Below are positions 22,786 through 23,091 of a stretch of 64,000 bases of DNA, one piece after another. Position 1 is the stretch's first letter. The number at the start of each line of letters is the position of its first letter. The stretch is taken from IMG/VR virus record IMGVR_UViG_3300024268_000012, one strand, 5' to 3'. The position numbers were made by a program, and so were the translations under genes. The stretch comes from a virus (lineage: Duplodnaviria; Heunggongvirae; Uroviricota; Caudoviricetes). The notes under the pieces were generated by a model. It had not been told where the DNA came from. It did no database searches and saw nothing but the letters and a program-made list of their open reading frames with translations.

Positions 22786-23091
22786 GCCCAGGTGGTGGAA
22801 TTGGCAGACACAGCGGACTTTGACTTAGCGACAACATTTGAGCACTATGAAGGAAACTTCATAAGTGAATGCTGGCTAATTCGGCGAATAGCTAAGAGAA
22901 CGCCGAGCTAAATCGAAAGCCTTTGGCTTTCGTAAATGTGTAGAGACTATATACCAGCCTCCTAAGTCGTAAGATATGGAGAAGACATAGTCCGGACTAC
23001 AACGTAGAAATACGGCCATGGTGACATGGAGTAGTGCGAAAATCCGCTGGCCTTGAAAGCCGTACGGGTTCGAGTCCCGTCCTGGGCACCA
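22786..23091 (+). tRNA. tRNA-Leu(TAA) interrupted by a group I intron between U34 and A35
   Basis: Exon 1 is GCCCAGG-TG-GTGGAATTGGCAGACACA-GCGGA-CTT. Exon 2 is AAAA-TCCGC-TGGCCTTGAAAGCCGT-ACGGGTTCGAGTCCCGT-CCTGGGC-A-CCA. This is the classic intron position. Confidence 0.8.
22821..23038 (+). ncRNA. Group I (IC3-like) self-splicing intron, 218 nt
   Basis: The 5' exon ends in U and the intron ends in G. The core motifs AATTCGGCGAATAGCTAAG and GTGTAGAGACTA match the Azoarcus/cyanobacterial tRNA intron class. Confidence 0.75.

What the first reader, a model, noticed from the sequence alone, without database searches (positions are those of the whole stretch)
22786..23091. Compact 218-nt group I (IC3) intron in tRNA-Leu(UAA) at the classic U34/A35 position
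The exon halves give a complete type-II tRNA-Leu. The intron begins after CTT and ends in G before AAAA-TCCGC. It contains AATTCGGCGAA..CTAAG and GTGTAGAGACTA, which match the J6/7-P7 region of the Azoarcus and cyanobacterial tRNA introns. This confirms that the phage tolerates self-splicing introns in its tRNAs, and it gives a baseline against which to judge the other, ORF-filled insertions.
Basis: partly seen in the sequence, partly recalled or inferred. Interest (0 to 1): 0.55.

Follow-up and report, generated by a model that had tools for sequence, protein, structure and literature searches.

The report
Self-splicing intron in phage tRNA-Leu
A leucine tRNA gene in what looks like a large phage genome is interrupted by a 218-base self-splicing (group I) intron of the classic bacterial tRNA-Leu type; it is an ordinary, intact member of that family, notable mainly because such introns have hardly been reported in phage tRNA genes.

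Summary
Window 22786-23091 (+) is a type-II tRNA-Leu(UAA) gene split between U34 and A35 by a 218-nt insert (22821-23038). Rfam Intron_gpI matches over its full length at 47.4 bits (E 4e-11 locally), just below the curated 50-bit cut-off, so the default scan does not report it. All helices P1-P10 can be drawn. In 30 homologues sharing the insertion site, 87% of pair cells are paired (35-41% for slid controls), with compensatory changes in P2, P3, P8 and P9. The U.G splice-site pair and the terminal G are invariant. The window copy agrees with 108 of 109 highly conserved columns. The core matches the Azoarcus-type IC3 introns. This copy has no ORF and a nearly deleted P5; close relatives carry an HNH homing endonuclease in the P6 loop. 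The same family occurs in dozens of IMG/VR viral contigs with tRNA arrays, and unannotated in a published 595-kb phage. Verdict: a new member of a known kind. The two ORF-filled tRNA insertions nearby differ: they hold only a PD-(D/E)XK endonuclease gene, with no ribozyme, closed by a covarying helix that pairs the anticodon with the insert's 3' end.

The parts
22670..22698 (+). Sigma-70-like promoter candidate (TTGATT-17 nt-TATAAT with an upstream TG), about 88 nt upstream of the tRNA
   Evidence: This is a consensus match only; the count in the region is not above the shuffled controls.
22786..22820 (+). tRNA-Leu(UAA) 5' exon: acceptor arm, D arm, 5' strand of the anticodon stem, and C32 U33 U34
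22818..22820 (+). P1 exon strand (CUU); U22820 forms the U.G wobble at the 5' splice site
   Evidence: The U.G pair is present in 30/30 homologues.
22821..23038 (+). Group I (IC3-type) intron, 218 nt, with no ORF
   Evidence: Rfam RF00028 gives 47.4 bits over model positions 1-253. ARAGORN reports i(36,218). No sense-strand ORF exceeds 46 aa.
22837..22842 (+). Internal guide sequence: UUU (22837-22839, pairs with 3' exon AAA to form P10) followed by GAG (22840-22842, pairs with 5' exon CUU to form P1)
   Evidence: P1 is paired in 100% of cells and P10 in 67%.
22847..22862 (+). P2 hairpin (6 bp) with an L2 GAAA tetraloop at 22853-22856
   Evidence: 6/6 pairs show changes on both sides; present in the minimum-free-energy fold.
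22871..22875 (+). P3 5' strand (GCUGG), pairing with 22954-22958 (CCAGC)
   Evidence: 5/5 pairs are compensatory and 100% of cells are paired.
22879..22906 (+). J3/4, P4 (22881-22886 with 22901-22906) and a vestigial P5 (14-nt loop at 22887-22900, AAUAGCUAAGAGAA)
   Evidence: P4 is invariant, partly because the search pattern required it. P5 is a 3-8 bp helix in most homologues but is lost in the window/L013/L152 clade.
22907..22939 (+). P6 (G.U and C-G), an A-rich internal loop, and P6a (8 bp with a UUU loop). This is the site where relatives carry an HNH ORF.
22940..22949 (+). J6/7 and the P7 5' strand (G22943, bulged A22944, GACUA 22945-22949), pairing with 22988-22993 (UAGUCC). This is the P3/P7 pseudoknot and the presumed guanosine-binding site.
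   Evidence: All six pairs are invariant in 30/30 sequences. The block is identical to the Azoarcus-type core.
22959..22981 (+). P8, carrying an 11-nt GAAA-tetraloop receptor (CCUAAG...UAUGG) and a GUAA loop
   Evidence: Read directly from the sequence. The same block occurs in the Azoarcus-type sequence.
22982..22993 (+). J8/7 (AAGACA) and the P7 3' strand (UAGUCC)
   Evidence: the AAG and CATAGTCC columns of this block are invariant in the family; the base between them is A or G.
22996..23035 (+). P9 three-way domain: a closing stem (ACUAC/GUAGU), hairpin P9a (GAAA loop) and hairpin P9b (GUGA loop)
   Evidence: (P9 has 4/5 and P9b 5/5 pairs with changes on both sides).
23038..23038 (+). Terminal guanosine (omega-G) at the 3' splice site
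   Evidence: G in all 68 homologues; invariant column.
23039..23091 (+). tRNA-Leu(UAA) 3' exon: A35 A36 A37 A38, the 3' strand of the anticodon stem, the long variable arm, the T arm, the acceptor strand and CCA

Best explanation
Window 22821-23038 is an intact, ORF-less group I intron of the IC3 tRNA-intron lineage. It sits between U34 and A35 of a tRNA-Leu(UAA) gene in the tRNA array of a probable large phage. Inferred mechanism: the precursor folds into the P3-P9 core. The 5' exon end CUU pairs with the guide GAG (P1, with the splice-site U.G). An external guanosine bound in P7 attacks after U22820. The terminal G23038 then enters the same site. The guide UUU holds the 3' exon AAA (P10), and the freed 5' exon attacks after G23038. 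This joins the exons into a normal anticodon loop, CUUAAAA. The L2 GAAA loop probably docks into the 11-nt receptor in P8. The second long-range contact of Azoarcus-type introns (L9 to P5) is probably lost or altered, because P5 is reduced to a 14-nt loop. The copy descends from a mobile family whose other members carry an HNH homing endonuclease in the P6 loop. What is shown here: the anatomy, the homology, the covariation and the intact core. What is inferred: the catalysis, the tertiary contacts and the phage host.
For: ARAGORN with introns allowed gives tRNA-Leu(taa) i(36,218), and the spliced product is a normal 88-nt tRNA-Leu. Rfam Intron_gpI matches over its full length at 47.4 bits, E 4.4e-11. 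Every helix P1-P10 can be drawn with canonical pairs. On a MAFFT alignment of 30 homologues that are less than 90% identical, 87.3% of cells are paired, against 35-41% for the slid controls. Thirty-six pairs show changes on both sides, and 0/500 shuffles reach the observed covariation score. The minimum-free-energy fold independently recovers P2, P3, P4, P6a and P9/9a/9b, with z = -4.4. The window agrees with the family at 108 of 109 columns that are at least 90% conserved. Sixty-eight homologues share the identical junction CTT|...G|AAAATC. The core blocks are shared with Azoarcus-type tRNA(CAU) introns. Relatives with the same short P5 carry 147-164 aa HNH ORFs, or remnants of them, in P6. 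For the phage context: there are 37+ tRNAs within about 20 kb, many PHROG matches, an ATP-dependent DNA ligase, GyrA/B, and an ATPase about 42% identical to proteins of Enterococcus and Bacillus phages. The nearest relatives are IMG/VR contigs of 120-190 kb with tRNA arrays.
Against: The Rfam score is 2.6 bits below the curated gathering score, so a standard annotation run is silent. P1 and P10 each have only 3 exon pairs. P5 is almost deleted, which may weaken folding or make splicing depend on a protein. P4, P6 and P7 never vary in the alignment, partly because the retrieval pattern fixed them, so they carry no covariation evidence. There is no expression or splicing data. The phage assignment is indirect: no capsid or terminase gene lies in the window, there was no nucleotide match to GenBank phages at E<=1e-5, and the source contig was not found.
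Confidence: 0.9

Rival explanations
1. The intron is a decayed relic that no longer splices, so this tRNA-Leu(UAA) gene is a pseudogene in a redundant phage tRNA array.
For: P5 is reduced to a loop, and the usual P5 receptor half (UAUGG) is missing. The Rfam score is below the gathering score. UUA makes up only 9.5% of Leu codons in the window's ORFs, so the need for this tRNA may be modest.
Against: 108 of 109 strongly conserved family columns are retained. All helices pair canonically. The short-P5 form recurs in 48 other loci, which argues that it is a viable variant. The exons are intact and the CCA is encoded. This is the only tRNA-Leu(UAA) in the array.
Confidence: 0.06
2. The intron is genuine but splices efficiently only with a protein helper (a host or phage chaperone or maturase), because the L9-P5 tertiary clamp is lost.
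For: P5 is vestigial in this clade. The window encodes several RNA-handling proteins: an RNA ligase, RlaP, and an 'RNA-binding protein' PHROG.
Against: The L2 GAAA loop and its P8 11-nt receptor are intact, and P9b keeps a GNRA loop. From general knowledge, small IC3 introns such as the Azoarcus intron are very stable. No maturase-like ORF lies in or next to the intron.
Confidence: 0.2
3. The window is bacterial chromosome (or a plasmid) rather than phage, so this is just another cellular tRNA-Leu(UAA) intron.
For: The same intron family is widespread in bacterial genomes: 120+ genome contigs, covering Burkholderia, Chitinophagaceae, Clostridia and Acidobacteria. The window holds no structural phage genes. 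It also holds metabolic genes: FolD, FTHFS, MetK and a CitMHS transporter.
Against: There are 37+ tRNAs of nearly all specificities on one strand within 20 kb, interleaved with small ORFs and homing endonucleases. Many proteins match PHROG families, among them an ATPase at E 4e-104. The DNA ligase is ATP-dependent. The closest intron and endonuclease relatives lie on 120-195 kb IMG/VR viral contigs with the same combination of features.
Confidence: 0.08

Closest known systems
[quoted passage not shown] Anabaena/Nostoc PCC 7120; surveyed in PMC13011429)
   Same: The host gene, the insertion site (34/35) and the junction CUU|...G|AAAAUC are the same. It is a group I fold with a U.G splice-site pair and a terminal G. 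It belongs to an IC-type lineage. The 2026 survey lists 34/35 in tRNA-Leu as a standard site and found HNH endonuclease genes in tRNA-Leu(UAA) introns of Bacteroidota.
   Different: This copy sits in a phage-like tRNA array rather than a cellular chromosome. It is shorter than the size I recall for the Anabaena intron (about 249 nt, from memory; not checked here). P5 is nearly deleted. I did not compare it directly with a cyanobacterial sequence.
Azoarcus sp. BH72 tRNA-Ile(CAU) intron (the archetypal IC3 ribozyme, with crystal structures cited in PMC3984707)
   Same: The core blocks are shared almost verbatim: AAUUCGGCGAA (J3/4-P4), AACGCCGAGCYAA (P4'-P6), GUGUAGAGACUA (P6'-J6/7-P7), CAUAGUCC (P7') and P8 with CCUAAG...UAUGG. 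The size is similar (205 vs 218 nt). L2 is GAAA.
   Different: The host tRNA and site differ (Ile CAU, reported by ARAGORN at +3 from the anticodon start, vs Leu 34/35). The Azoarcus P5 carries a full receptor for L9; here P5 is a 14-nt loop. The P9 domain here has two hairpins. The Azoarcus sequence I used was recalled from memory. It was validated only by its 87% full-length match to Rhodocyclaceae loci.
Group I introns of cultured phages (T4 td/nrdB/sunY, Twort, SPO1, and others)
   Same: These are self-splicing group I introns that reside in phage genomes, are often linked to homing endonucleases, and undergo gain-and-loss cycles.
   Different: Those introns interrupt protein-coding genes. 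The 2014 review (PMC3984707) states that all phage introns known then were in protein genes, despite the many phage tRNA genes. This one is in a tRNA gene and belongs to the tRNA-intron lineage.
Unannotated phage examples found here: LR756511.1 (595-kb uncultured phage) and Gordonia phage Daredevil (NC_048021)
   Same: LR756511.1 carries a tRNA-Leu(UAA) 3' exon preceded by the same P7-P9 core, with an HNH ORF upstream. Daredevil carries a tRNA-Lys(UUU) with a 238-nt group I-like insert at 34/35.
   Different: The LR756511.1 copy holds an endonuclease gene. The Daredevil intron is in a different tRNA, lies next to the integrase, and is only about 74% identical over half of the family consensus used as query (not the window intron). 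Neither is annotated or, as far as I could find, described.

Membership tests
Group I intron (Rfam RF00028) | Covariance-model match at or above the curated gathering score | tested here: not met
   The score is 47.4 bits against a gathering score of 50. The match is nevertheless full-length (model 1-253), with E 4.4e-11 locally and 2.3e-09 in 24 kb. This is a threshold miss, not a failed model.
Group I intron (Rfam RF00028) | Conserved core helices P3-P9, including the P3/P7 pseudoknot | tested here: met
   All were drawn with canonical pairs. In 30 homologues, 87.3% of cells are paired against 35-41% for the slid controls. P2, P3, P8, P9 and P9b show compensatory changes. P4, P6 and P7 are invariant.
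Group I intron (Rfam RF00028) | The 5' splice site follows a U that forms a U.G wobble with an internal guide sequence (P1) | tested here: met
   U22820 pairs with G22840. The U.G pair is present in 30/30 homologues.
Group I intron (Rfam RF00028) | The intron ends in G (omega-G), and P10 can form with the 3' exon | tested here: met
   G23038 corresponds to a G in all 68 homologues. UUU 22837-22839 pairs with AAA 23039-23041, and P10 is paired in 67% of family cells.
Group I intron (Rfam RF00028) | Guanosine-dependent self-splicing | not testable with these tools
   This needs in vitro transcription and a GTP/Mg2+ assay.
IC3 tRNA-intron lineage (Azoarcus / tRNA-Leu type) | Insertion in the anticodon loop of a tRNA gene, at 34/35 for tRNA-Leu(UAA) | tested here: met
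IC3 tRNA-intron lineage (Azoarcus / tRNA-Leu type) | Sequence homology of the catalytic core to recognised IC3 members | tested here: met
   The retrieval pattern also recovers tRNA(CAU) introns of Rhodocyclaceae, which are 87% identical over the full length of the recalled Azoarcus ribozyme. The window shares all the core blocks. The reference sequence came from memory.
IC3 tRNA-intron lineage (Azoarcus / tRNA-Leu type) | Two tetraloop-receptor clamps (L2 to P8 and L9 to P5), with no P2.1 or P5abc extensions | tested here: inconclusive
   The L2 GAAA loop and the P8 CCUAAG...UAUGG receptor are present, and there are no extra domains. The P5 receptor is absent, because P5 is a 14-nt loop. The feature list itself comes from general knowledge.
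IC3 tRNA-intron lineage (Azoarcus / tRNA-Leu type) | Assignment by subgroup-specific covariance models | not tested
   No subgroup models are available in these tools.
Mobile (endonuclease-encoding) group I intron | Homing endonuclease ORF inside the intron | tested here: not met
   The longest sense-strand ORF overlapping the tRNA gene is 46 aa and starts upstream of it. The antisense 82-aa ORF has no Pfam match. Close relatives do carry HNH ORFs in P6, so this is an ORF-less derivative or an ORF-less ancestral form.
Phage-encoded tRNA gene | The gene lies in a virus genome | tested here: inconclusive
   The case rests on the tRNA array, the PHROG matches, the ATP-dependent ligase, and the relatives on IMG/VR contigs. 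No hallmark virion gene lies in the window, and the source contig was not found.

The most novel reading that the evidence does not exclude
Phage tRNA arrays are an overlooked reservoir and vehicle for tRNA introns, and this array carries two mechanistically different kinds side by side. One is the classic ribozyme intron in tRNA-Leu. Its endonuclease-bearing relatives on phage contigs could explain the patchy spread of the tRNA-Leu(UAA) intron across bacterial phyla. The other is a ribozyme-free kind, at 20920-21387 in tRNA-Asn or tRNA-Asp and at 30997-31471 in tRNA-Thr. It consists only of a PD-(D/E)XK (I-Ssp6803I-family) endonuclease gene, closed by a helix in which the last three bases of the insert pair with the anticodon. 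If these tRNAs are functional, they must be matured by a protein-based cut-and-ligate pathway that is not known in bacteria or phages.
Probability: 0.3. Interest if true: 0.8.

Novelty: new member of a known kind. Interest (0 to 1): 0.38.

Why it matters
The tRNA-Leu(UAA) intron is the textbook 'ancient' bacterial and plastid group I intron. Whether its scattered distribution reflects vertical descent or horizontal transfer has long been debated. Intact and endonuclease-bearing copies in phage tRNA arrays offer a concrete vehicle for transfer. This includes a published 595-kb phage where the intron is unannotated. It also revises the 2014 statement that phage introns occur only in protein genes. 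There is a practical point too. Default ARAGORN and Rfam gathering-threshold scans both miss this gene, so phage tRNA repertoires are under-counted wherever introns are present. Finally, this well-behaved ribozyme intron serves as the control that shows the neighbouring endonuclease-only tRNA insertions to be something else.

Tried and rejected
- Default scans. ARAGORN and the Rfam gathering-threshold scan do not report the gene or the intron. It needed the intron option and an E-value threshold.
- Nucleotide search of GenBank phages. blastn of the region found nothing at E<=1e-5. At E<=10 there were only short chance-like hits. A family consensus was needed to find LR756511.1 and Daredevil.
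- Source contig. An exact-protein lookup found no record.
- Literature. Full-text searches found no report of group I introns in phage tRNA genes. A search for the core sequence in papers also found nothing.
- Other group I introns in the array. None were found at E<=0.1 across 12-36 kb.
- An endonuclease inside this intron. None is present.
- A hidden ribozyme in the two ORF-filled insertions. No group I, group II or small self-cleaving ribozyme family matched, even at E<=10. A hammerhead-like reading of the CUGAUG internal loop was considered and dropped, because the core positions do not fit and the motif is absent from the tRNA-Thr type.
- The Rfam-aligned register for P3. It was rejected in favour of GCUGG/CCAGC, which is paired in 100% of family cells.

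Full report
THE OBSERVATION. The exon GCCCAGGTGGTGGAATTGGCAGACACAGCGGACTT occupies 22786-22820. It is followed by 218 nt (22821-23038) that end in G, and then by AAAATCCGC...CACCA (23039-23091). Default ARAGORN lists 33 tRNAs in the window but not this one. With introns allowed it reports tRNA-Leu(taa) i(36,218), and the joined exons fold as a normal 88-nt type-II tRNA-Leu(UAA) with the anticodon loop CUUAAAA. The site is therefore U34/A35.

IS IT A GROUP I INTRON? At Rfam's gathering thresholds the window yields only tRNA hits. With an E-value threshold, RF00028 (Intron_gpI) matches 22811-23015 over the whole model (1-253) at 47.4 bits. That is 2.6 bits below the curated cut-off, with E = 4.4e-11 on the local region and 2.3e-09 on 24 kb.

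I drew the structure by hand and checked every pair. In brief: P1 pairs exon CUU with guide GAG (U22820.G22840), and P10 pairs UUU 22837-39 with AAA 23039-41. P2 is 6 bp with a GAAA loop, and P3 is GCUGG/CCAGC. P4 is followed by a vestigial P5 loop and then by P6/P6a. P7 is GACUA/UAGUC plus G-C across a bulged A. P8 carries CCUAAG...UAUGG and a GUAA loop. The P9 domain is a three-way junction with GAAA and GUGA hairpins, and the intron ends at the terminal G23038. Coordinates for each element are in the parts list. An unconstrained minimum-free-energy fold recovers P2, P3, P4, P6a and the whole P9 domain, with z = -4.4 against shuffles.

COMPARATIVE SUPPORT. The pattern AATTCGGCGAA-N40-70-GTGTAGAGACTA found 33 IMG/VR viral contigs and more than 120 bacterial genome contigs.
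- ARAGORN with introns shows 70 of these 153 loci as tRNA-Leu(UAA) split at the same place. Another 20 are tRNA(CAU) genes.
- Sixty-eight non-identical precursors share CTT|...G|AAAATC.
- On a MAFFT alignment of 30 sequences below 90% identity, my structure gives 87.3% paired cells, against 35-41% when the 3' partners are slid by 1-3 columns.
- Thirty-six of the 60 pairs show changes on both sides, and 0/500 shuffles reach the observed covariation score.
- P2 (6/6), P3 (5/5, 100% paired), P8, P9 and P9b carry the compensatory changes.
- P1, P4, P6 and P7 never vary, so they say nothing either way. P4 and part of P6/P7 were fixed by the search pattern.
- P6a and P9a score poorly (about 53%), because their lengths differ and MAFFT cannot align them.
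- The window copy agrees with the family at 108 of the 109 columns that are at least 90% conserved among the other 29 sequences, so the catalytic core is intact.

SUBGROUP. No subgroup-specific models are available, so IC3 rests on homology and architecture. The Azoarcus ribozyme sequence as I recall it aligns at 87% over its full length to tRNA(CAU) introns of Rhodocyclaceae retrieved by the same pattern. This validates both the recollection and the family link. The window shares its J3/4-P4, P4'-P6, J6/7-P7 and P8-receptor blocks. The 2014 review cites the Azoarcus intron as IC3 (PMC3984707). The 'CTAAG' at 22892-22896 looks like the surviving half of the P5 receptor that the Azoarcus-type introns carry whole.

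WHAT IS PARTICULAR TO THIS COPY. P5 is reduced to a 14-nt loop. The pattern for this short form found 39 metagenome and 9 viral loci, so it is an established variant rather than a one-off lesion. In that clade the P6 loop ranges from 15-28 nt (the window has 26), through 83-147 nt, to 520-585 nt. The long forms encode 147-164 aa proteins with an HNH motif. This is the usual gain, decay and loss cycle of a homing endonuclease, and the window copy is the ORF-less state.

CONTEXT.
- The intron sits in a one-strand array of at least 37 tRNA genes between about 15 and 34 kb.
- A sigma-70-like promoter candidate lies 88 nt upstream.
- The window also encodes GyrA/GyrB, an ATP-dependent DNA ligase, and an ATPase about 42% identical to proteins of Enterococcus and Bacillus phages. 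It further encodes an RNA ligase, RlaP, metallophosphoesterases, a vault-protein-like ORF, and folate and SAM enzymes. Many of these match PHROG families.
- The closest relatives of the intron (about 80% identity) lie on 17-190 kb IMG/VR contigs with dense tRNA arrays.
- I therefore accept 'large phage' as very likely, but it is not proven. No virion gene lies in the window, and the source contig was not found.

IS IT KNOWN? The intron class is textbook. A 2026 survey lists 333 tRNA group I introns in 18 bacterial phyla, with 34/35 in tRNA-Leu as a standard site and 81% of them IC (PMC13011429). For phages, the 2014 review states that all introns seen so far were in protein genes (PMC3984707), and my searches found no later report. 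Yet the family is common on viral contigs. A consensus query also hit two GenBank phages where nothing is annotated.
- LR756511.1 is a 595-kb uncultured phage. It has the same P7-P9 core and a tRNA-Leu 3' exon preceded by an HNH ORF.
- Gordonia phage Daredevil has a tRNA-Lys(UUU) with a 238-nt insert at 34/35, next to the integrase.
This is therefore a new member of a known kind, in an under-described setting.

THE 'BASELINE' COMPARISON. ARAGORN with long introns allowed also reports two tRNA genes that hold ORFs.
- Insert 20920-21387 (468 nt) is 22 nt, then a 143-aa ORF, then 14 nt.
- Insert 30997-31471 (475 nt) is 25 nt, then a 147-aa ORF, then 6 nt.
- Both ORFs match Pfam PF11645 PDDEXK_5, which by my recollection (not checked here) is the family of the I-Ssp6803I homing endonuclease, at E 4e-30 and 2e-31.
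- No intron or ribozyme family matches either insert even at E<=10, and there is no room for one.
- Reading the junctions as 36/37 gives tRNA-Asn(GUU) and tRNA-Thr(UGU), the two specificities that are missing from the array.
- Thirty IMG/VR loci encode relatives of the endonuclease, and in 27 of them it sits in a tRNA anticodon loop with the same tiny flanks.
- In 20 distinct junction sets the insert's last three bases pair with the anticodon, and the next base pairs with the insert's first base, in 20/20 cases. Position 35 and its partner show six pair types, including G.U.
- The anticodon stems stay paired while changing sequence. Overall pairing is 80%, against 34-40% for slid controls.
- Two contigs carry both intron kinds: L003/L170 and L023/L174.
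These inserts are not group I introns. They are either dead targets of a free-standing endonuclease or a ribozyme-free intron class that needs protein-based cutting and ligation. I could not decide between the two.

VERDICT. The finding is correct and well supported. In itself it is ordinary: an intact, ORF-less IC3-type tRNA-Leu(UAA) intron. It has moderate interest for its phage setting and for what it reveals by contrast with the neighbouring inserts.

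Noticed in passing
window 20884-21427 (insert 20920-21387; ORF 20942-21373): This tRNA gene is interrupted in the anticodon loop by 468 nt that consist almost entirely of a 143-aa PD-(D/E)XK endonuclease gene (Pfam PF11645, E 4e-30). There are only 22 nt before the ORF and 14 nt after it. No Rfam intron or ribozyme family matches even at E<=10. The spliced loop reads CUGUU|AA, which is Asn(GUU) at 36/37. The alternative reading is Asp(GUC) at 35/36. The array has two other tRNA-Asp genes and no tRNA-Asn.
   Followed up: partly
window 30961-31511 (insert 30997-31471; ORF 31022-31465): This is a second tRNA gene with the same layout: 25 nt, a 147-aa PF11645 ORF (43% identical to the first), then 6 nt. 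The spliced loop reads UUUGU|AA, which is Thr(UGU), a specificity otherwise absent from the array. The ends of the insert and the anticodon loop zip into a helix of about 22 bp.
   Followed up: partly
L156-L185 (IMG/VR), compared with the two window inserts: In 27 of 30 viral loci that encode relatives of this endonuclease, the gene sits inside a tRNA anticodon loop (Asn, Thr, Arg, Ile or Lys types). The inserts are 451-483 nt. The last three bases of the insert always pair with the anticodon (GUU:AGC, UGU:AUA or ACA, UCU:AGA, GAU:AUC, UUU:AAA), and the next bases pair with the insert's 5' end. There are compensatory changes (UUAC/GUAA versus UUGC/GCAA). The implied splice sites lie 3 bp apart on opposite strands. 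Contigs 3300028591_000104 (L003 and L170) and 3300045988_169130 (L023 and L174) carry both this kind of insert and a group I tRNA intron.
   Followed up: partly
window 14992-15117, 15124-15241, 15536-15650 (+): These are three tRNA-like genes (Rfam tRNA, 41-47 bits) with intact acceptor, D and T arms. They carry about 44-60 extra nt in the anticodon arm or loop. ARAGORN's default run does not call them. The extra sequence does not show the anticodon-pairing helix seen in the endonuclease inserts. Their nature is unknown.
   Followed up: partly
window 31606-31670 (+): This is a partial tRNA match (Rfam 45.9 bits, model positions 5-66 only) just downstream of the interrupted tRNA-Thr. ARAGORN does not call it.
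   Followed up: no
window 26718-26808 (+): This is a 91-nt type-II tRNA with a CUA anticodon, which ARAGORN labels 'Pyl'. It is a candidate amber suppressor and hints at stop-codon recoding in this genome or its relatives. Several intron-encoded HNH ORFs in related loci look interrupted, which would fit.
   Followed up: no
window 30112-30230 and 35934-45570: There is a weak Y-RNA-like (YrlA) match of 30.6 bits against a gathering score of 69. It lies near an RNA-repair-style gene cluster: a DUF2828/DUF7788 protein (PHROG 'RNA-binding protein'), a major-vault-protein-like ORF, RlaP, two metallophosphoesterases, and an RNA ligase (PF09414) at 44128-45570.
   Followed up: no
L154 = Gordonia phage Daredevil NC_048021, record 41.8-42.1 kb (locus 1340-1651): A cultured phage carries an unannotated tRNA-Lys(UUU) split at 34/35 by a 238-nt insert with the same P6-P9 core. 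It lies between the integrase gene and a hypothetical gene.
   Followed up: partly
L155 = LR756511.1 (595-kb uncultured phage), locus about 5800-6160: An unannotated tRNA-Leu(UAA) 3' exon is preceded by the IC3 P7-P9 core and by an HNH endonuclease ORF. This is an endonuclease-bearing relative of the window intron in a published huge-phage genome.
   Followed up: partly
window 347-1180, 33626-34858, 53020-54681, 17034-18380: The element carries one-carbon and methyl-cycle genes and a transporter: FolD-like (PHROG 7320), SAM synthetase, formate-tetrahydrofolate ligase and a CitMHS-family transporter. The transporter sits inside the tRNA array.
   Followed up: no
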